A DNA stretch of 64,000 nucleotides from a virus. Position 1 is the first letter of the stretch; every line of letters starts with the position of its first letter. Below are positions 13,550-64,000 of this stretch, in pieces. The notes under the pieces were generated by a model that worked only from the letters and a program-made list of their open reading frames with translations, was not told the origin of the DNA and did no database searches. The stretch spans positions 32,001-96,000 of IMG/VR virus record IMGVR_UViG_3300040801_003693. The stretch is one strand, 5' to 3'. The translations under genes were made by a program, and so were the position numbers.

Positions 13550-13739
13550 TGTCTTTTCCTTTGTATTATTTGTACAAAGAAAAAGGGAGAAGTTTACTGG
13601 AGAGAATATCTTCCTAGTAAACTTCGGAGGAAACATATCTTAATAATTTAGAAAGAAATACCTTTGGGTTGAACGATTTACTTATAGAGAGTATTTATGT
13701 TAAGTTGGTAGGAAATAAAATATTATCTAAATAAGGATC

Positions 13740-14443: not shown

Positions 14444-14830
14444 CTAAGCTTTATATGTCATTACTTCTATATACATATCCCTGTTTCTCTTTGAAGGGTT
14501 TGAGTTGTATGTAAAATCGTTTTGATGTATTTTGCTAGAGACAAATCCTAACTTCTCATACACACTCTTTCTATAATTCTCTCCTCCATCCAGACTATGA
14601 GCCTGACAAAAGATTGAATCATATTGATTTTTTTTAATAAACTCATTCCACTTACTATAAAGAAACTTACTTATGTAATATCTTTCTTTCTTAGAAAGAT
14701 AAGGATTAAAGTCAAAACTATTGTTTACTTTAAATTGAACGGAATAAACGCCTTCGCTAACTAAAGTAAATGTAATCTCAACTATGTTTCCTAAAATATC
14801 TTTCTCAAAAGTAATTTGTTTTAAATGCAT
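14444..14830 (-). CDS. GNAT-like small protein (family B)
   Basis: FKVNNS...IFCQAHSLDGGENYRKSVYEKLGF. Confidence 0.6.
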   Translation of the reverse strand: MHLKQITFEKDILGNIVEITFTLVSEGVYSVQFKVNNSFDFNPYLSKKERYYISKFLYSKWNEFIKKNQYDSIFCQAHSLDGGENYRKSVYEKLGFVSSKIHQNDFTYNSNPSKRNRDMYIEVMTYKA

Positions 14831-39821: not shown

Positions 39822-40127
39822 TTAATCGTATACTTCAGGATGTAACGGTTTGTAATAATCTAGAAACACCTTTTTATAAGCTCCTTCTGGATTACAAATT
39901 AAACTTCCTTGATAAATCCATTTTCTATTTTCATCCTCCTCATAATTAGCTTCGTATACTGTTTTTTTCTCCATGAGTGTTGTATGCACTTCAATTTCTA
40001 TTTCTTCTGAATACATACTACTTCCATTTAAAAACACATCTGGACAGTCGGGTAAAGCGAGTGCGATGGATATCGTAGGAGGAATTTCCTCACCCCAGCT
40101 TTGTTTAATCAAATTAGTTATTTGCAT
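39822..40127 (-). CDS. small partner protein (candidate immunity) of 40130..40585
   Basis: starts 2 nt after the upstream stop. Confidence 0.65.
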   Translation of the reverse strand: MQITNLIKQSWGEEIPPTISIALALPDCPDVFLNGSSMYSEEIEIEVHTTLMEKKTVYEANYEEDENRKWIYQGSLICNPEGAYKKVFLDYYKPLHPEVYD

Positions 40128-57594: not shown

Positions 57595-59832
57595 ATGTTA
57601 ATTCCATCCGTTAACTTTGTTGAAAACAATATAGGAATAACTCCGATTACGCCGGGGGTAAGAAATAGAATAGGAATAGTAGGTGAGTTTAGTAGGGGAC
57701 CGGCTAATGTCGCTACTTATATTACTGGCTATACTGACTTTTCTACTCGTTATGGTTCTGATACTAATAAAGGTTCATTAGCCTATCAAGCTGCATTCGA
57801 CCAGGGTGCGGAAGAGTTTATGGCTGTTCGGGTATTAGGAAGAGGAAAGGTTAGTAAAGGTGCAGTAGTATTTGGTGGGGAAGTAGCTAAGCCAAATAGA
57901 TTATTAATGAATCTTAAGTTTATTGGTAATGTTGTTGACAAAGGCACTATTCCAATGGTGAGTAGTGCTTTTACTACCGGGATGTATACAGGTTCGGTAA
58001 GCGGAAGATATTATTTTTATGTTAGTACCGCAGACAGTACCAATGCCACTATCAAATGGAAATTCTATAGATTAGGTGCAGAGCCTACAGTTATTGATTG
58101 GAGTGAGATAACAGATACTTTAACTATTAATTTAACAACTGATAAAGGTTTAGAGAAAGAAGTTGAGAATGGATTAAAAGTAATTTTTGGTACTGCATCT
58201 CAAACAGATCCTTTGTATTTAAGTGTAGGAAATAGTTTCTCTGTAAGGTGTAATTCTTATTTATTAGAAACTGAAATTAATACTGGGGAGTTACCTCCTC
58301 AAATGATTACTCAGTTTATTGATAGTGTTGTAGGATTATACCCACTAGGAAATATAGTTAGAGACGAATTCCAAACTGGAGCTATTTTTGAATTAGAAGA
58401 AGATTTAATTGGTTCTATCGGGAATAAATTTTATTACTGGTTTGAATTACAAGATGAAGTTGATTCTGGTGTTACAGTTTATCCCCACGGAATAGAAGAA
58501 GCATTGACTTTCCAGGGTGGAGAAGACCAGCCAAGAAATGCTTTTAGAGACTTTTATACTTTATCTGGAATTCCTTTAATTAGAATAATAGCTTTATCAG
58601 AAGGAAGTTGGGGTAATCAACTTAATGTTTCAATCTTCCCTTTAAATAATAAAAAGTTTAGATTAAGTATTGAAGATTTAAATGCAGAGAATTTTAATCC
58701 TCGTTTTGAAGCTGAATCTTATATTATTAATATTAATGAAGTTGACGCTGATGGTCAACTAAATCAATTATCAAATAGCTCTTTAGTAAGAGGATTCTTT
58801 ATTCCAAAATTAAATAATCCTGCTGGATTTGATAGCTCTTTGCTTTTGCAATCTCCTCAAAGAATTGCTCCTATTAATGAATTAATTGTAGACCTTGAAG
58901 ACCCTACTCATAAAGATCATTTTGGCATTAATTTCTTACAGAATATTTCTTTACAAAATGGTTATGATGGACCGGGTATTACTGATGAAGATTATATAAA
59001 CGGTTTAGAAGTTATTAAAGAGCAACCTGCACATATTATTATTTGTCCTGGACAGTATCAATCTACAAATATTAGACAAGCGATGATCTCTCATGCTGAG
59101 AATGCTTCTGAACTTGAAGGATTAAGAATCGCAGTACTAAATGCTCGACCAAGATTAGTCCCTGGTGCTGCCAATCAAGAGACTGTAGGATTAGAATCTA
59201 CTAGAGCAGTTATGGTTTCTGGTTGGTGTTCCTATAGCGGACAACCTAATGCCCCTCGGTTCGGAACTTCTCCTGATGCTTTCTATGCAGGTAAGCTAGC
59301 TAATACCCCTTTCTTTGCAGGACCTAACAGTAGAAGAACTGCTGGCTCTGTTCAAGCTGTTTCTGAATGCGATGCTTCTAAATTCTCTTCTAAAAATTCT
59401 TTACAAATTTTTACTGATGCTAAACTAGAGATTTTAACTTTAGATCCTTCTACTCAATCTTATGTTTTCACTAACGGCAGAACCTTAAGCGCTAACATTG
59501 ATTGGGAAAAGGTTTCCTTCCGACGGACTTACGATTATATTAGACAAGACTTATTTGACCTGCTTCAACAGTACAAATCTGAACCTCATACTAATTTGTT
59601 ACGTACACAAATTGTTACTGCTATTAATGGCTATATGAATGAACGTGCTAGAAACAGCGAGATTGCTTCCTACGGCGGAACTATAGCTGACTCTAGTAAT
59701 AACACTGTTGAAAGTTATATCCGTGGTGAGCTTAATATTAGTGTAAGATTTCTTCCAGTTTATGCCCTAGACTACATAAACGTAATCTTAATACGTGATA
59801 GCCAAACTGGTTTGGTTAGCTTTGGTAGTTAA
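57595..59832 (+). CDS. contractile tail sheath protein
   Basis: PSVNFVE, GIVGEFSRGP, EGSWGN, LQNGYDG, RRTYDYI, GELNISVRFLPVYALDYINV. Confidence 0.9.
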   Translation: MLIPSVNFVENNIGITPITPGVRNRIGIVGEFSRGPANVATYITGYTDFSTRYGSDTNKGSLAYQAAFDQGAEEFMAVRVLGRGKVSKGAVVFGGEVAKPNRLLMNLKFIGNVVDKGTIPMVSSAFTTGMYTGSVSGRYYFYVSTADSTNATIKWKFYRLGAEPTVIDWSEITDTLTINLTTDKGLEKEVENGLKVIFGTASQTDPLYLSVGNSFSVRCNSYLLETEINTGELPPQMITQFIDSVVGLYPLGNIVRDEFQTGAIFELEEDLIGSIGNKFYYWFELQDEVDSGVTVYPHGIEEALTFQGGEDQPRNAFRDFYTLSGIPLIRIIALSEGSWGNQLNVSIFPLNNKKFRLSIEDLNAENFNPRFEAESYIININEVDADGQLNQLSNSSLVRGFFIPKLNNPAGFDSSLLLQSPQRIAPINELIVDLEDPTHKDHFGINFLQNISLQNGYDGPGITDEDYINGLEVIKEQPAHIIICPGQYQSTNIRQAMISHAENASELEGLRIAVLNARPRLVPGAANQETVGLESTRAVMVSGWCSYSGQPNAPRFGTSPDAFYAGKLANTPFFAGPNSRRTAGSVQAVSECDASKFSSKNSLQIFTDAKLEILTLDPSTQSYVFTNGRTLSANIDWEKVSFRRTYDYIRQDLFDLLQQYKSEPHTNLLRTQIVTAINGYMNERARNSEIASYGGTIADSSNNTVESYIRGELNISVRFLPVYALDYINVILIRDSQTGLVSFGS

Positions 59833-60031
59833 TCAAAAAACGATTTAAAGCGGGGGTTAAAACAGATACTACTTCTGGATTGTTTTTAATAATCTCAGCA
59901 TCTCTTGCACAATTACTACAACCACAATCGCAGCCATGCTCTTTTAAATTTATAGCTGCTTCTATTACAAGTTGCGTTATTTTTTTATTCATAAGAAAAT
60001 TTCTGCTTACAAAACTATATAAGTTTGCCAT
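59816..60031 (-). CDS. small Cys-rich hypothetical protein
   Basis: HGCDCGCSNC. Confidence 0.45.
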   Translation of the reverse strand: MANLYSFVSRNFLMNKKITQLVIEAAINLKEHGCDCGCSNCARDAEIIKNNPEVVSVLTPALNRFLINYQS

Positions 60032-60068
60032 ATGATTATATAATCATATTCTAAACTTATACAAAAAT

Positions 60069-60212
60069 ATGCTTGATAAATTTTTAGGGAAGTTAGAACA
60101 AAACATAAAACTACCTACTATTGGAGCAGTTATTGGTTCCGCTTTTGGAATCCCAGGTTCTGTTCTAGGATTACTTATTGTAATTGGTTATTTCACTATT
60201 TCGGAAGAGTAA
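60069..60212 (+). CDS. 47-aa membrane peptide (not in ORF track)
   Basis: MLDKFLGKLEQNIKLPTIGAVIGSAFGIPGSVLGLLIVIGYFTISEE; GxxxG motifs. Confidence 0.5.
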   Translation: MLDKFLGKLEQNIKLPTIGAVIGSAFGIPGSVLGLLIVIGYFTISEE

Positions 60213-60269
60213 ATTAATTGTTAATTATGAAGTCACGTTCTATAAAAACGTGACTTCTTCTAATTCTAT

Positions 60270-60749
60270 TTAAGTATTAATTAATTCTAAATTAAATATT
60301 TCAGCACAAATATTACCAAGATATACTGGAGCATTTGGAGCTAATTCATATCTAAAGTATTTAGGATTAGTCTCAATCTTTCCATTCTTATTAAAGATTA
60401 AAGGCTTCCATACCACTTGATTTAATTGTGGTTGTTTATTCTTGATTGTAATCTTGTCGTATTCAATAATATCAAATGAATGTGGATAGTCCCTTTCTCC
60501 TGGGAGATAAGGATAGTGATGAATCCATTTAGTATTAAGTGGATTTAGATTAAAATCATGAATAATTAAAGGTGTAATAAATTCTACTGAATTAGTAATG
60601 CTAGTTCCAGTATTTGAATCTGTCATAATAACAATTGTTTCAGATTCAAATTCTACTAGTTTTAATTGACAATAAGAATCCCAATTACCAAATCCATTTC
60701 CAAATCCTTTCCAATTATATTTTGTATTAACTAAAATGTTATATTCCAT
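60270..60749 (-). CDS. hypothetical protein
   Basis: 159 aa, AGGA RBS; NTGTSITNSVE...WIHHYP. Confidence 0.7.
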   Translation of the reverse strand: MEYNILVNTKYNWKGFGNGFGNWDSYCQLKLVEFESETIVIMTDSNTGTSITNSVEFITPLIIHDFNLNPLNTKWIHHYPYLPGERDYPHSFDIIEYDKITIKNKQPQLNQVVWKPLIFNKNGKIETNPKYFRYELAPNAPVYLGNICAEIFNLELINT

Positions 60750-60787
60750 TGCGGTTTTATCCTACTTGAAAATTTAATTAAATAGCA

Positions 60788-60824
60788 GTTTCAATCCCTG
60801 ATAGGGATTAGAATTAATTTCCAC
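60788..60824 (-). CRISPR. solitary 37-nt cyanobacterial type I-D-like CRISPR repeat
   Basis: GTGGAAATTAATTCTAATCCCTATCAGGGATTGAAAC on the - strand: ATCCCT/AGGGAT stem and ATTGAAAC 3' end; no second copy seen in the window. Confidence 0.8.
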
Positions 60825-60847
60825 GGGTAGTACTCGATATGAGAACA

Positions 60848-60999
60848 TTGACCGAGCTTTGAAGCCGTGCGCCCCACGGACTTTTTATCAAATTGTTTTT
60901 TGAAGTTGCAGGCTGCATTTCTGCATTTAATTGGATTACATTTCATCTCACACTTTTCATTTCGGGTAGGGTGTGAGACTTCCCGCCGAGAAAGTTAAA
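60848..60999 (-). mobile_element. mini non-autonomous IS200/IS605-like element
   Basis: - strand begins TTTAACT...hairpin...GATGAA and ends GTCAA; similar to 61712-61892. Confidence 0.5.
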
Positions 61000-61321
61000 G
61001 TTTCATCATTTTTTCAAAGTACCTCATCTTATAAATCAACATAACCAAAGATGGAAGTTCTGGATTTATTGGTTTATAAATCTCAAAGTCCTGGTAATCC
61101 CATATATGATTAGGATTACCTTGACAGCCTACAGTGTAAGCGTGCAAAAACTTATAGCCTTTAATTTTCTTTTGACTACTTAGGTATTTTTTGACTGCTT
61201 CTTCCGGACTTATTTCGCAGCACAAACGTGGTGTTGTAGGAAGACTAAAGTATGAATTAGTTTCAGGACAGGCGGTTAGCATAAAAATAGTTTTTACGCC
61301 TTCTAAAATTTCTGATTTCAT
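60995..61321 (-). CDS. small partner protein (candidate immunity) of 61318..61710
   Basis: ATGA overlap with the upstream stop. Confidence 0.65.
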   Translation of the reverse strand: MKSEILEGVKTIFMLTACPETNSYFSLPTTPRLCCEISPEEAVKKYLSSQKKIKGYKFLHAYTVGCQGNPNHIWDYQDFEIYKPINPELPSLVMLIYKMRYFEKMMKL

Positions 61322-61710
61322 TTAGCAATACATCTCCAACTTCCATTTGATTTTTGTTCAACACGGACAAATTCTAATCCATGCATATCACTTTCTCTTT
61401 GACATCTTTCTTCTGCTTGTTCTTGGGTTAATTCTTTCCCATATATATTGATAACCTGCTCTTCCTCAAAAGCGTCTGGTTCATCAATCATCTTGCGTAC
61501 ATTACCTTTCTCGTCTGCAAAGTATTTCTTCTTTGCAGTGCGGTTATGCCAAACATAAGAAGTCACTCCACCAATAATAGTAGTGCCCAACAAAACACAA
61601 ACCTTCGCGCAAACCAAAGGCGCAATAACTATCGGCACTGCCTCAACTTTACGAGGCATATTTAAACTAACTGCTAATCCAACAGCCAGCATTTCTGATA
61701 AAATCTTCAT
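61318..61710 (-). CDS. secreted Cys-rich protein, paralog 4
   Basis: start at ATG 61710; first about 74 aa highly similar to 36017..36418, C-terminus divergent. Confidence 0.8.
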   Translation of the reverse strand: MKILSEMLAVGLAVSLNMPRKVEAVPIVIAPLVCAKVCVLLGTTIIGGVTSYVWHNRTAKKKYFADEKGNVRKMIDEPDAFEEEQVINIYGKELTQEQAEERCQRESDMHGLEFVRVEQKSNGSWRCIAK

Positions 61711-61711
61711 A

Positions 61712-61892
61712 TTGAGTAACCCGCCTCTAACGGGTGAAAGATTGCCGCGATAATACCAACGTGTCCAGCGTTGGTTGCGGTATATTTTTTTACCATTCAA
61801 AATACTTCCACGGCAATCAATATCCGGTTCGTAATTCATCCCAACACTTCTCTTACGGGTAAGTGTGGGACTTCTTACGATTGAAAGTTAAA
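61712..61892 (-). mobile_element. mini non-autonomous IS200/IS605-like element
   Basis: TTTAACT...CCCACACTT/AAGTGTTGGG hairpin, GATGAA, and 3' hairpin CCCG-TTAGAGG-CGGG followed by TTACTCAA. Confidence 0.55.
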
Positions 61893-62017
61893 TTTTCATG
61901 GTGCTTTTCAATATTATATAGGTATAAAAAATAATAATCAGAAAAAGATACAAAATGTAATATTTAATCAGCCCCTAAGTATTTTTATTCCACTATCAAG
62001 TATAAAAATTCAGCATA

Positions 62018-62125
62018 AAATTCGCGGAGGGTTTTTATTGCTTGATAGCTTAAATCCTTTCTCTATATACATTTGAGCCTCAACTCATAACAACTACGAC
62101 TTAATACTTGCTCTTCCGCGAATTT
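62018..62125. promoter_or_regulatory. CRISPR-leader-like region bounded by an 11-bp inverted repeat
   Basis: AAATTCGCGGA (62018-62028) and TCCGCGAATTT (62115-62125) directly downstream of cas1. Confidence 0.5.
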
Positions 62126-62129
62126 GTTT

Positions 62130-63101
62130 TTATCTTAAATAAAAAGGATTGTACATTTGAGAGCCATCCTCACAAATATTTTTTATTTGCTGCACCCGGA
62201 TAGAAATTGCATCAGAATAATTTACTTCCATCTTTGTATTGGGATATTTAAATTTGTATTTTAATTTGTTGCTAAAAGATTGTGCTAATTTCTTTTGAAT
62301 AATTTCAGGAAGTACATCCTCAGTGTATTCATTAAAATCAGAAGCGCATATAGTTTTCAGATTGAATACTTTAATTAATATAGGATCGATTAGATAAGGC
62401 GACATTTCAAATTTAAGATCGGCAACTAATGCTCCACATTTGTGCTTCTCACTATGCCTAAATAAGGATATTTCTTCACTGACATTATTAGCAATCAAAG
62501 TAATTCTTATTTGCTTTTCTAATAAACTTTCTAGAAAGACAATACACATTTGTGCTATCGAATCTTTTCTCTTACCGTAATATTCGATATCATCTATAAA
62601 GAATTTTCCTAGTAAAGCATAATATTTTGCATGAATTAATCCTAAGTACCCGTTGATTGAATCTATCCCTTTGCTTAATTGAATTTGCTGTAAACTGTAA
62701 TTATAAAATATTTTAAATTGTTTTAATTCCTCTTCGCTAATAGAATTTCTATCACGATACTGTCTTCTTAAAAAGTTGTACCTTCTTTTCGTAACTAAAA
62801 TTGATTGTTGCTTCACAATGTCTAATCGTAAAGCATTATAGTTAATAGCATAACTATTAATTGCTTTTCCAAACTTATATATCCCCCCAGGAGAAGAGAT
62901 AATTACAGTAATGTTCTTATCAATTAAAAGCTGTAATACTCCAGAGCTAATACTTATATCTGAAGTATTTATACATAAGCAAACATTGTTTAAGTCTTCA
63001 ATTGTTTCTAATATATATTCAGGATTAACATAGCCTGTTTCTAGTTCTGTACTGTCAAGAGATATTATTTTAGAGAATGGATAATGATTACTGCTATTCA
63101 A
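62130..63101 (-). CDS. cas1: degenerate Cas1 homologue (probably inactive)
   Basis: ISISSGVLQLLIDKNITV, IDSINGYLG...AKYY, LFRHS, ALVADLKFEMSPYLID, YNPFYLR follow the Cas1 pattern; two catalytic acidic residues appear substituted. Confidence 0.75.
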   Translation of the reverse strand: MNSSNHYPFSKIISLDSTELETGYVNPEYILETIEDLNNVCLCINTSDISISSGVLQLLIDKNITVIISSPGGIYKFGKAINSYAINYNALRLDIVKQQSILVTKRRYNFLRRQYRDRNSISEEELKQFKIFYNYSLQQIQLSKGIDSINGYLGLIHAKYYALLGKFFIDDIEYYGKRKDSIAQMCIVFLESLLEKQIRITLIANNVSEEISLFRHSEKHKCGALVADLKFEMSPYLIDPILIKVFNLKTICASDFNEYTEDVLPEIIQKKLAQSFSNKLKYKFKYPNTKMEVNYSDAISIRVQQIKNICEDGSQMYNPFYLR

Positions 63102-63110
63102 ATTAATTTC

Positions 63111-63431
63111 CTAATTAACTATTTGAAACACTGCTGAATAATTTAGAAGAAATTGCATTAAAGAATCTTGAGAACCAGCATAAAGATAGTTTCTATGTCC
63201 GGCTCTAGAAGGAACTTGTTTGGAAAAGATTATAAATTCATTAATTAAACCTAACTTTTGTTTATCTAATATATTTGAAATTAATACATGAGTAAAAGAA
63301 TCTTCTCTTGTTTGATGTTCTCTACCAATGGCTATACCTTTATTATTATTTAACCAAGGTTCTGCATCTGTATAGTTGATAAACTTATATACTTTAATTT
63401 TATTGTTCATTTTTATAAACTGCTTTTCCAA
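63111..63431 (-). CDS. hypothetical protein
   Basis: about 100 aa, upstream of cas1, lacks Cas2 motifs. Confidence 0.55.
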   Translation of the reverse strand: MEKQFIKMNNKIKVYKFINYTDAEPWLNNNKGIAIGREHQTREDSFTHVLISNILDKQKLGLINEFIIFSKQVPSRAGHRNYLYAGSQDSLMQFLLNYSAVFQIVN

Positions 63432-63486
63432 ATTTATTATTGTTAGTAAACAAGCTGATTTTAAAATGAAACATATAATTAATTTC

Positions 63487-63933
63487 TTAACTCCACGGAT
63501 TGTTTTCTTCTAAATATCTTTCTATCTTAGTTTCTATTTCAGATTCCATTACATCCATGTGTCCATCAACATCTGCATACCATCCATGTTCGTTTAGTGT
63601 TTTTATTAATGCTTGAACTGCACGTGCCTTTGCTAATTTTACTCTTCCTTGAGGAGTTTTAAAATACTCCTCACGCTTCTTAGCTCTTTCTCTTTTTGCT
63701 CTCTCTGCTTCTTCTAATAATTGTTTAACCTTCTCTACATCACATAAGTAACCTGGGTCGTATCCCGCTCCTATTTCTTTTCCTTGTGCAGTATAACGTT
63801 TTCCGTTAGATAACTTCACCTGTCCTGACTTGGTTATATTACTCACTATTCCTATCTTTGCTTTTATTCCTCTTCTATCGTTGTAGTAATAAATCCCTAT
63901 CTCTTGTCCTAGTTTTAAGTTTGATGTGTTCAT
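63487..63933 (-). CDS. hypothetical protein (SH3-like N-terminus, coiled coil)
   Basis: 148-aa ORF. Confidence 0.65.
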   Translation of the reverse strand: MNTSNLKLGQEIGIYYYNDRRGIKAKIGIVSNITKSGQVKLSNGKRYTAQGKEIGAGYDPGYLCDVEKVKQLLEEAERAKRERAKKREEYFKTPQGRVKLAKARAVQALIKTLNEHGWYADVDGHMDVMESEIETKIERYLEENNPWS

Positions 63934-64000
63934 AGTTTACTTTTAATTCTGTTGATTGAATATCAGTTTAGTACATTCTCTCTCCGGAGAGAAGAGTCGT

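What the first reader, a model, noticed from the sequence alone, without database searches (positions are those of the whole stretch)
60750..60847. Solitary type I-D-like CRISPR repeat 38 nt upstream of a gene: candidate RNA anti-CRISPR or Cas6-processed leader
Seen: one intact 37-nt repeat, oriented with the surrounding - strand genes, followed by a spacer-sized 38 nt that contains the RBS of 60270..60749. Known: solitary repeat units in phages can act as RNA anti-CRISPRs (Racr), and some cyanophages carry arrays that use host Cas proteins. Inference: a decoy for host Cas6/Cascade, a single-guide mini-array, or Cas6-dependent control of the downstream gene.
Basis: partly seen in the sequence, partly recalled or inferred. 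Interest (0 to 1): 0.75.

Follow-up and report, generated by a model that had tools for sequence, protein, structure and literature searches.

The report
Lone host-type CRISPR repeat in cyanophage
A large virus of mat-forming cyanobacteria carries one perfect stand-alone copy of its hosts' type I-D CRISPR repeat just ahead of an orphan gene, most likely an RNA decoy for the host's CRISPR machinery, which is a known kind of phage element not yet tested for this CRISPR type.

Summary
One intact 37-nt repeat lies at 60788-60824 (- strand). It is the only copy in the 135,938-bp virus record and scores above Rfam's CRISPR-DR5 threshold. Its last 22 nt are identical to repeats in at least 120 genome stretches, nearly all titled as cyanobacteria. 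One such array sits directly behind a complete type I-D cas operon. Contigs from the microbial-mat sample that holds the phage contain abundant arrays with a near-identical repeat.

The phage is a distant relative of Microcystis phage Ma-LMM01. The repeat lies in a 4.5-kb accessory island between the tail sheath and the next tail gene. It is 1.3 kb downstream of a divergent Cas1-like gene that lacks the catalytic glutamate, and 38 nt upstream of an orphan 159-aa gene.

It is truly solitary: no partial repeat nearby, no host leader or trailer similarity, no guide target, and no other cas gene.

Best reading (0.45): a solitary repeat unit of the RNA anti-CRISPR (Racr) kind. Rivals are a collapsed-array relic, Cas6-dependent leader processing, a guide RNA and an antisense RNA. 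No RNA data exist and no relatives were found.

This scan has noted similar lone repeats in other cyanophages. New member of a known kind.

The parts
60788..60824 (-). Solitary 37-nt CRISPR repeat unit of the CRISPR-DR5 / cyanobacterial type I-D family. Hairpin AATCCCT-ATC-AGGGATT plus GAAAC tail. The expected 8-nt handle ATTGAAAC would be 60788-60795; the handle length is recalled general knowledge, not tested here.
   Evidence: unique; Rfam 45.3 bits against 40. (33-34/37 identity to host array repeats). (the 5' half scores 17.2 bits on a matrix built from 67 host 5' halves; host median 18.1; background 99.9th percentile 4.9).
60750..60787 (-). 38-nt spacer-sized stretch between the repeat and the start codon. 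It holds the AGGA ribosome-binding site at 60760-60763.
   Evidence: No match to the phage's own record, to 1,387 host and viral spacers or any fetched locus, or to the flanks of 25 host solitary units.
60270..60749 (-). Orphan 159-aa ORF directly downstream. Function unknown; candidate co-transcribed partner.
   Evidence: No Pfam or PHROG family. Only itself among 5.8 billion clusters. No PDB sequence match at E up to 1. Atlas model pLDDT 0.31 and no hit of 0.9 or more.
60825..60945 (-). 121-nt upstream leader between the cassette hairpin and the repeat. It would be the body of a decoy RNA. It holds hairpin 60865-60879 and hairpin 60907-60925, both terminator-like on the + strand. ORF 60791-60946 (51 aa) runs through it and the repeat and is probably not a gene.
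   Evidence: No - strand sigma-70-like promoter in it. No similarity to 65 host leaders or 69 trailers. A seawater run holds 60854-60935 unchanged, plus a variant of hairpin 60865-60879 with two compensatory pair changes.
60946..60978 (-). Hairpin TCTCACAC...GTGTGAGA. It is the downstream copy of the direct repeat that brackets the 173-aa/108-aa gene pair; the other copy is near 61835-61899.
   Evidence: (family D11, spacing 893).
62130..63101 (-). Divergent Cas1-like gene (323 aa), 1,306 nt upstream of the repeat on the same strand. Leu replaces the catalytic Glu of the G-x-E-G motif; the His and Asp are kept.
   Evidence: Pfam PF01867, 44 bits against 22.3. Below all NCBIfam Cas1 cut-offs: 53.6 against 71.7 for generic cas1, 49.7 against 385 for Cas1d. 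Best PDB match is Synechocystis I-D Cas1 7cr6, E 0.0015. Alignment with Cas1d and four clade members.
59816..64000 (-). Accessory island of - strand ORFs inserted between the tail sheath gene (57595-59832, +) and the homolog of Ma-LMM01 gp092. The island runs over the window's end to about 64318 in window numbering; the gp092 homolog lies at 64319-64927 (record 96319-96927, +). It holds the repeat, the Cas1-like gene, the hairpin-bracketed gene pair and orphan ORFs.
   Evidence: In Ma-LMM01 and in Microcoleus phage My-WqHQDG the two tail genes are 5 and 135 nt apart.

Best explanation
The element is a solitary repeat unit (SRU) of the kind shown elsewhere to act as an RNA anti-CRISPR (Racr). 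It is transcribed on the - strand as part of the island's message or its leader. The RNA then presents an exact copy of the host type I-D Cas6 recognition hairpin and handle. Host Cas6 would bind and cut it. The upstream fragment would stay bound to Cas6, perhaps with Cas7d/Csc2 coating the 121-nt leader, and lacks a proper 5' handle. That would draw Cas proteins away from real crRNAs during infection. Shown here: the sequence, its uniqueness, its family and type I-D association, near-identical host arrays in the same sample, and its place in an accessory island beside a second CRISPR-derived gene. Inferred: transcription, Cas6 binding and cleavage, and any inhibition.
For: The unit is full length and typical of host repeats at both ends. 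Its 22-nt hairpin-plus-handle part is identical to repeats in at least 120 genome stretches. The family is type I-D (PMC4428289 and PMC4916379, passages).

The mat sample that holds the phage has arrays with a repeat differing at 2-3 of 33-34 positions. Depth there is 80-157 against about 5 for the phage flanks, and repeat-38 nt-repeat joints have depth 100-119.

It is solitary by published SRU-type criteria. Only the 37 nt are host-like; the flanks match no host leader or trailer.

The phage has no Cas2, Cas4, Cas6, Csc1 or Csc2 homolog, so any RNA role needs host proteins.

It lies in an accessory island, 1.3 kb from a catalytically degenerate Cas1-like gene. A random point would fall that close with probability 0.026.

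SRUs have been proven to be Racrs for I-C, I-E, I-F and V-A, and one lies in a bicistronic message with an Acr gene (PMC10651486, sections 11-12 and passages).

Full-length lone repeats of this family recur in other viral contigs and in cultured Ma-LMM01. CRISPR is reported to look ineffective against Ma-LMM01 although the host has matching spacers (PMC5780444, passage).
Against: There is no sigma-70-like promoter on the - strand within 250 nt upstream.

The unit sits in an mRNA leader, not in a separate small-RNA gene. No relatives of the locus were found, so there is no conservation evidence.

The closest named relative, Microcoleus phage My-WqHQDG, has no such unit. In Ma-LMM01's close relatives the lone repeat is absent at the homologous site, so such units come and go.

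No Racr has been shown for type I-D. None of 1,387 spacers from the fetched loci targets this phage, so CRISPR pressure on it is not shown.
Confidence: 0.45

Rival explanations
1. Relic without present function. The repeat is what remains of a cas-less phage array that collapsed to one repeat by repeat-repeat recombination, or of a captured piece of host array.
For: Phages of this host range carry cas-less arrays: N-1 has 5 repeats (PMC4916379, passages), Ma-LMM01 has 3, and viral contigs L003, L004, L138 and L154 have arrays. Recombination between direct repeats would leave one clean repeat. No promoter was found. Lone repeats are gained or lost between close Ma-LMM01 relatives.
Against: All 37 positions are intact in a 33% G+C genome, while the flanks show no trace of host leader, trailer or partial repeats. 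It lies close to the only other CRISPR-derived gene of the record. A collapsed array that is still transcribed would act as an SRU anyway.
Confidence: 0.25
2. Cas6-dependent processing site in the leader of the 159-aa gene. Host Cas6 cuts the island transcript 46 nt before the start codon, changing the stability or translation of the downstream message. This would tie expression to the presence of an active I-D system. It can coexist with the decoy role.
For: The repeat has the same orientation as the gene and lies 38 nt from the ATG, with the RBS in between. No promoter was found between the upstream genes and the repeat, so co-transcription is plausible. RacrIC1 and AcrIC5 share one message (PMC10651486, passage).
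Against: Folding shows no structure that masks the RBS beyond what shuffled sequences give: z -0.74 for 91 nt and -1.85 for 271 nt. In two other viral contigs with full-length lone repeats the geometry differs: antisense to the flanking genes in L005, and inside a long ORF-poor gap in L148.
Confidence: 0.15
3. One-repeat guide RNA. Cas6 cutting leaves ATTGAAAC plus the 38 nt as a crRNA-like guide. It would act against a competitor phage, or as a Cracr/crlRNA-type repressor of a host promoter.
For: The spacer-sized distance to the ATG. Viral mini-arrays and Cracr RNAs exist (PMC10120712 and bioRxiv 10.1101/2024.10.29.618823, passages).
Against: There is no downstream repeat, not even a degenerate one. 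The 60 nt after the repeat match nothing beyond 13-17 nt in any fetched host or viral locus, nor the phage's own record. None of the 25 host solitary units seen shares its flank, so the Cracr criterion of at least 9 PAM-proximal matches is not met in this sample. No search of whole public collections was made for a target.
Confidence: 0.07
4. Antisense 'anti-repeat' RNA. A + strand transcript of about 140 nt would run from near 60745 to the hairpin at 60865-60879 and carry the reverse complement of the repeat. It could pair with host pre-crRNA repeats or with the leader of the 159-aa gene.
For: A promoter-like site on the + strand at 60708-60737 (9 of 12) and a terminator-like hairpin with a T run at 60865-60889. 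The hairpin keeps its pairing through two double changes in a seawater variant. Four terminator-like sites were found against 1.3 expected.
Against: Promoter-like sites are no more frequent than in shuffles: 16 against 20. The fold of the + strand RNA is not better than shuffles, z -0.53. I know of no precedent (recalled, not searched).
Confidence: 0.05

Closest known systems
Solitary repeat units / RNA anti-CRISPRs (Racr: RacrIF1-3, RacrIE1-2, RacrIC1, RacrVA1-3; Camara-Wilpert et al. 2023, PMC10651486)
   Same: A single host-type CRISPR repeat on a virus, with no second repeat within 100 nt. The host carries the cognate subtype. It lies in an accessory or anti-defence-like neighbourhood. Like RacrIC1 with AcrIC5, it sits in one transcription unit with a protein gene.
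   Different: The subtype is I-D, for which no Racr has been tested. No promoter was found within 250 nt. It lies upstream of the protein gene, whereas RacrIC1 lies 11 nt downstream of its partner. A Cas1-like gene is 1.3 kb away, whereas SRUs are described as not associated with cas genes. The paper's lists of 2,103 viral SRUs are in supplements I could not open, so this very unit may already be catalogued.
Cas-less CRISPR array of Nostoc cyanophage N-1 (Chenard et al. 2016, PMC4916379)
   Same: The same DR5 / type I-D repeat family on a cyanomyovirus without effector cas genes. The N-1 array is transcribed during infection.
   Different: N-1 has five repeats, four spacers and an AT-rich leader. 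Here there is one repeat and no spacer.
Repeat units of Microcystis phage Ma-LMM01 (seen here)
   Same: The same phage lineage (tail sheath 40% identical) and the same repeat family, including one full-length lone repeat.
   Different: Different genomic sites. Ma-LMM01 also has a three-repeat mini-array behind a TTGACA-N17-TATAAT promoter. Its repeats end in GAAAA or GAAAT, not GAAAC.
Viral mini-arrays, crlRNA mimics and Cracr RNAs (Shmakov et al. 2023, PMC10120712; Liu et al., bioRxiv 10.1101/2024.10.29.618823)
   Same: A repeat-derived viral RNA that would use host Cas proteins.
   Different: Those need a pseudo-spacer matching a host cas or toxin promoter, or a host regulatory guide. No such match was found here.

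Membership tests
Rfam RF01318 CRISPR-DR5 | Covariance-model score at or above the gathering score, over the full model | tested here: met
   45.3 bits against 40, model positions 1-37 of 37
Type I-D CRISPR repeat family of cyanobacteria | Arrays with this repeat lie next to a type I-D cas operon | tested here: met
   L024 has 25 repeats, 32/37 identical to the phage unit, directly behind Csc3, Csc2, Csc1, Cas6, Cas4, Cas1d and Cas2, all above NCBIfam cut-offs. The Microcystis DR1 repeat is found only downstream of I-D operons (PMC4428289, passage).
Solitary repeat unit (SRU; SRUFinder criteria of PMC10651486) | Full-length match to a known CRISPR repeat | tested here: met
   33-34 of 37 identical to host array repeats, the last 22 nt identical, and a 5' half typical of hosts
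Solitary repeat unit (SRU) | No other full or partial repeat within 100 bp | tested here: met
   The best other ungapped match in the record is 24/37 and lies elsewhere. Local alignments to the +/-150-nt flanks do not exceed shuffles; the best score of 10 was reached by 25 of 300 shuffles.
Solitary repeat unit (SRU) | Intergenic position on a virus or plasmid, not associated with cas genes | tested here: inconclusive
   It is on a virus record and lies between ORFs 60995-61321 and 60270-60749. However, a 51-aa ORF (60791-60946) overlaps it, and a Cas1-like gene lies 1.3 kb upstream. No effector or processing cas gene was found.
RNA anti-CRISPR (Racr) | Own promoter within 250 bp and expression as a small RNA | tested here: not met
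   No - strand sigma-70-like site in 60825-61075. The scan covers only that promoter type, and no RNA run holds the stretch.
RNA anti-CRISPR (Racr) | Bound and cut by the host's repeat-processing Cas protein; inhibits interference | not testable with these tools
   Needs RNA and protein experiments
RNA anti-CRISPR (Racr) | Host carries the cognate CRISPR-Cas subtype | tested here: met
   Near-identical arrays are abundant in the same sample, and the family is tied to I-D operons. The host itself is not identified.
CRISPR array or mini-array | At least two repeats separated by a spacer | tested here: not met
   One repeat only
Cracr / crlRNA mimic | Pseudo-spacer with at least 9 PAM-proximal matches to a host regulatory guide or a cas promoter target | tested here: not met
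   No flank similarity to 25 host solitary units or to any fetched host locus. This is a limited sample, not a search of whole collections.

The most novel reading that the evidence does not exclude
The 4.5-kb island is a two-part counter-CRISPR module built from parts derived from the host's CRISPR system. A Cas1 with a dead active site would interfere with spacer acquisition. A type I-D repeat decoy is built into the 5' leader of an orphan gene, so that cutting by host Cas6 both ties up Cas6 and switches on or tunes that gene. The phage would thereby sense whether the cell has an active CRISPR system.
Probability: 0.1. Interest if true: 0.75.

Novelty: new member of a known kind. Interest (0 to 1): 0.4.

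Why it matters
Type I-D is the main CRISPR type of bloom- and mat-forming cyanobacteria, and no RNA anti-CRISPR is proven for it. This unit is a clean test case: an exact Cas6 hairpin and handle, a matching host array in the same sample, and a neighbouring dead-Cas1 gene. The same repeat family also occurs in cultured Ma-LMM01, both as a lone unit and as a promoter-driven mini-array. That offers a laboratory system in which the idea could be tested. It might also explain why Microcystis spacers against that phage seem ineffective.

Tried and rejected
Exact 37-mer in the species-representative genomes: 0 matches.

Relatives of the locus:
- The Cas1-like protein, the 159-aa protein, P0003 and the tail sheath found no relative in viral contigs.
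- The 159-aa protein found none in metagenome contigs.
- The word-index protein search returned only the query itself for the Cas1-like and the 159-aa proteins.
- DNA of 59800-63500 against named phages: no match.

RNA: no RNA holder was listed for 59800-63500. The seawater run X3 holds only parts of the neighbouring cassette and leader.

'Captured cas1-leader-repeat module':
- The flanks of the repeat and the 236 nt after the Cas1-like gene match no host leader, trailer or locus.
- There is no cas2.
- In the one host locus with a close clade member (L051, 49-50% identical to P0005), the gene converges on the trailer end of an array, a geometry unlike the phage's.
- The clade is rare: 1 of 401 sampled cyanobacterial genomes at E up to 1e-45, and 0 of 5 further genomes with P0003.

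Upstream hairpin 60865-60879 as a degenerate second repeat: rejected. By my own ungapped comparison of the sequence read (no tool run), identity is at chance level. The hairpin reads better as a + strand terminator.

Host assignment by spacers: none of 1,387 spacers matches the phage over more than 20 nt.

The 159-, 148- and 106-aa ORFs against PDB sequences: nothing meaningful. The Atlas gave no lead for the 159-aa ORF.

Survey of the 19-nt core in IMG/VR: 73 stretches, with 57 of 143 units lone by the exact-core test. Many have unrelated 5' halves and G+C-rich flanks and may be chance matches. I computed no expectation and rest no claim on that count.

Papers:
- Kuno et al. 2012 is not held.
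- The supplements of PMC10651486, which list catalogued SRUs, were not opened because supplements are closed.
- Among the 20 listed of 112 papers, and the 20 listed, none links Ma-LMM01-type phages with lone repeats, mini-arrays or Racrs. These searches are not exhaustive.

Full report
OBSERVATION

The 37-nt unit GTGG...GATTGAAAC lies at 60788-60824 on the - strand. It is unique in the window at up to 3 mismatches, and none of 100 shuffles gave a match. It is also unique in the whole 135,938-bp IMG/VR virus record, estimated 78% complete, of which the window is bases 32001-96000.

Rfam's CRISPR-DR5 model matches it end to end at 45.3 bits, against a gathering score of 40. No other Rfam family reaches E 1 in 59800-64000. 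The best other ungapped match to the unit anywhere in the record is 24/37. Local alignments to the 150 nt on either side do not exceed shuffled flanks, and the 19-nt core occurs once at up to 2 mismatches.

The 38 nt that follow hold AGGA, 10 nt before the ATG of ORF 60270-60749.

WHAT THE REPEAT IS

The exact 37-mer is absent from one genome per species of 185,579 species. Nearly all are titled as cyanobacteria: Nostoc, Calothrix, Rivularia, Coleofasciculus, Microcoleus, Caldora and others. Two are titled only 'uncultured bacterium'. Most of the stretches are arrays.

Over the full length, the best host repeats are 34/37 identical (a single unit in L069) and 33/37 (arrays in L091, L022 and L092). 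I built a position matrix from 67 distinct host 5' halves. It scores the phage's 5' half at 17.2 bits. The host median is 18.1 and the 99.9th percentile of 200,000 random viral 18-mers is 4.9. The whole unit is therefore host-typical, not only the hairpin.

In L024 (Rivularia MAG), a 25-repeat array 32/37 identical to the phage unit lies directly downstream of, and co-directional with, Csc3/Cas10d, Csc2, Csc1, Cas6, Cas4, Cas1d and Cas2. L053 and L030 show the same order, cas1 then array. This fixes the transcribed orientation as GT...GAAAC and the type as I-D, in line with the Microcystis survey (PMC4428289, passages) and the N-1 paper (PMC4916379, passages).

THE SAME SAMPLE HOLDS THE MATCHING HOST ARRAY

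Four DNA runs hold parts of 59800-63500, and none is RNA. Three of them (X1, X2, X4) come from one microbial-mat sample, possibly the window's source.

Contigs of phage-like depth (3.6-5.1) cross the repeat into both flanks without a single difference: X2 covers 60388-60888 and X1 covers 60639-60874. The summed depth in the bin holding the repeat is 79.5, 157.1 and 19.1, against about 5 beside it. Joints from 60821 back to 60789 with 38 other letters between them have depth 100.9, 119.1 and 26.1. These are repeat-spacer-repeat contigs of an abundant organism whose repeat differs from the phage's at 2-3 of 33-34 positions.

The unit is therefore really in the phage, and a probable host with near-identical arrays is abundant alongside it.

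CONTEXT

The tail sheath (57595-59832) is 40% identical to that of Ma-LMM01-type Microcystis phages and 43% to that of Microcoleus phage My-WqHQDG. In both of those, the sheath gene is followed within 5-135 nt by the next tail gene. Here the homolog of that gene lies at 64319-64927 in window numbering, just beyond the window's end. So 59816 to about 64318 is a 4.5-kb island of - strand ORFs inserted into the tail module.

In - strand order, the island holds:
- ORFs of 148 and 106 aa with no family.
- A Cas1-like gene at 62130-63101 (Pfam 44 bits; below every NCBIfam Cas1 cut-off).
- A 173-aa/108-aa pair bracketed by a hairpin-containing direct repeat 893 nt apart.
- A 121-nt leader, then the repeat, then the 38 nt.
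- An orphan 159-aa ORF, a strong hairpin, and a 71-aa ORF.

In the Cas1-like protein and its four nearest relatives, Leu replaces the Glu of the G-x-E-G motif of Cas1d, while the His and Asp are kept. The best solved relative is Synechocystis I-D Cas1. Its nearest relative, at 39% identity, comes from a cyanobacterial MAG on a 2.2-kb contig.

The record has no recognisable Cas2, Cas4, Cas6, Csc1 or Csc2. A random point would fall as close to the Cas1-like gene as the repeat does with probability 0.026. The true chance is higher, because accessory DNA clusters in islands.

No sigma-70-like promoter lies on the - strand within 250 nt upstream of the repeat. A 51-aa ORF (60791-60946) runs through the leader and the repeat. 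It has no family and starts directly at the foot of the cassette hairpin. I take it as probably non-coding, but did not test this.

TESTS OF THE READINGS

Captured host module: the 176 nt upstream and 188 nt downstream of the repeat match none of 65 host leaders or 69 trailers beyond 8-10 nt. The 236 nt after the Cas1-like gene match no fetched locus. Only the 37 nt are host-like.

Guide RNA: the leader matches nothing else in the phage's own record. The 60 nt on each side match no fetched host or viral locus beyond 13-17 nt. None of 25 solitary units in host loci shares the phage's flank, so the Cracr criterion (bioRxiv 10.1101/2024.10.29.618823, passage) is not met in this sample.

CRISPR pressure: 0 of 1,387 spacers from the fetched loci match the phage over more than 20 nt.

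Structure: the repeat hairpin forms in all folds. The surrounding RNA is not more stable than shuffles on either strand.

On the + strand, a weak promoter-like site (60708-60737) and a terminator-like hairpin (60865-60879 plus a T run) would frame a 140-nt antisense RNA. The hairpin keeps its pairing through two double changes in a seawater variant. This is a lead, not a finding.

COMPARISON WITH OTHER PHAGES

The 23-nt 3' part occurs in four other IMG/VR stretches: a lone full-length unit (L002/L005), a two-repeat mini-array (L003) and a five-repeat array (L004). The degenerate 19-nt core occurs in 73 stretches. Full-length lone units include L002/L005 and the Microcystis-type unit of L134/L140/L148/L176. 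Many other hits share only the core and may be chance.

Cultured Ma-LMM01 carries the following:
- A three-repeat mini-array about 26 nt behind TTGACA-N17-TATAAT.
- A lone full-length repeat at 13613-13650.
- A half unit.

Its relatives show 2-4 places each, and My-WqHQDG shows none. In the close relatives, homology to both Ma-LMM01 loci stops exactly at the 5' edge of the repeat. MaMV-DC carries another shared motif at both sites. Such units therefore turn over quickly.

The Ma-LMM01 transcriptome paper states that CRISPR seems ineffective against the phage although the host has matching spacers (PMC5780444, passage).

MECHANISM AND ODDS

Lone viral repeats are a described class. Nine of them (I-C, I-E, I-F, V-A) were shown to inhibit CRISPR by binding the processing protein and building faulty complexes on the RNA upstream of the cut. 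One of them shares a message with an Acr gene (PMC10651486, sections 11 and 12 and passages).

This unit meets the sequence criteria of that class. It fails the promoter criterion as far as a sigma-70 scan can tell, and it cannot be tested for expression or binding here.

| Reading | Odds |
|---|---|
| Decoy (Racr-type SRU) | 0.45 |
| Functionless relic | 0.25 |
| Cas6-dependent leader processing (compatible with the decoy) | 0.15 |
| Guide RNA | 0.07 |
| Antisense RNA | 0.05 |
| Remainder, DNA-level roles such as a site for the Cas1-like protein | about 0.03 |

NOVELTY

This is a new member of a known kind. The same scan has already noted lone type I-D and III-B repeats in other cyanophages, and a separate report covers the Cas1-like gene.

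This case adds three things:
- The exact match between the phage unit and abundant arrays in the same sample.
- The pairing, in one inserted island, with a Cas1 that lacks its catalytic Glu.
- The position inside the leader of an orphan gene.

LIMITS

- There are no RNA data.
- No relatives of the locus were found.
- The host is not identified.
- The supplements of the Racr paper were not seen.

Noticed in passing
L195-L200 (NC_008562.1: 13613-13650, 21159-21177, about 35763-35942): Cultured Microcystis phage Ma-LMM01 carries host type I-D repeats: a three-repeat mini-array about 26 nt behind TTGACA-N17-TATAAT, a lone full-length repeat and a half unit. The record annotates the mini-array only as '56 bp repeat unit'. 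A transcriptome paper reports that CRISPR looks ineffective against this phage (PMC5780444, passage).
   Followed up: partly
L210, L211 (KF356199.1 near 14633-14660 and 40069-40106): In MaMV-DC and other close relatives, homology to both Ma-LMM01 repeat loci stops exactly at the 5' edge of the repeat. MaMV-DC keeps the promoter but carries another element. It has exactly two copies of ACGCCGTGCCCC, one at each of these two sites, and Ma-LMM01 has none. This looks like promoter-driven slots with exchangeable small-RNA cargo.
   Followed up: partly
window 60865-60879 (also 60229-60257 and 60907-60925): Three terminator-like hairpins on the + strand lie inside an island whose ORFs are all on the - strand (4 sites found against 1.3 expected). 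The 60865-60879 stem shows two compensatory pair changes (CCGTG/CACGG to CCCTA/TAGGG) in a seawater-run variant. That run also holds 60854-60935 unchanged.
   Followed up: partly
window 62130-63101; L051 4583-5617: The phage Cas1-like protein belongs to a small clade (P0003-P0006) with Leu in place of the catalytic Glu. The clade is rare: 1 of 401 sampled cyanobacterial genomes at E up to 1e-45. In Nostoc sp. FACHB-280 a member ends 75 nt from the trailer end of a 9-repeat array of the same repeat family, convergent with it.
   Followed up: partly
L011, L016, L028, L095 (Microcoleus); L012/L075; L043/L077: Host genomes hold solitary units of the same repeat with conserved downstream flanks shared between species. 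They are candidates for regulatory crRNA-like RNAs or transposon guide RNAs.
   Followed up: no
L130, L137, L161, L187, L188 (IMG/VR contigs): A group of viral contigs carries two core units only 45 nt apart, plus a third about 3.2 kb away, all with conserved flanks. The spacing is unlike a CRISPR array.
   Followed up: no
window 59816-64000 and about 318 nt beyond the window's end: A 4.5-kb island of - strand accessory ORFs is inserted between the tail sheath gene and the next tail gene. These two genes are adjacent in Ma-LMM01 and in Microcoleus phage My-WqHQDG.
   Followed up: yes
window 60791-60946: A 51-aa Cys-containing ORF starts at the foot of the cassette hairpin and reads through the CRISPR repeat, ending in its GATTGA. 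It has no family, and its coding status was not tested.
   Followed up: no
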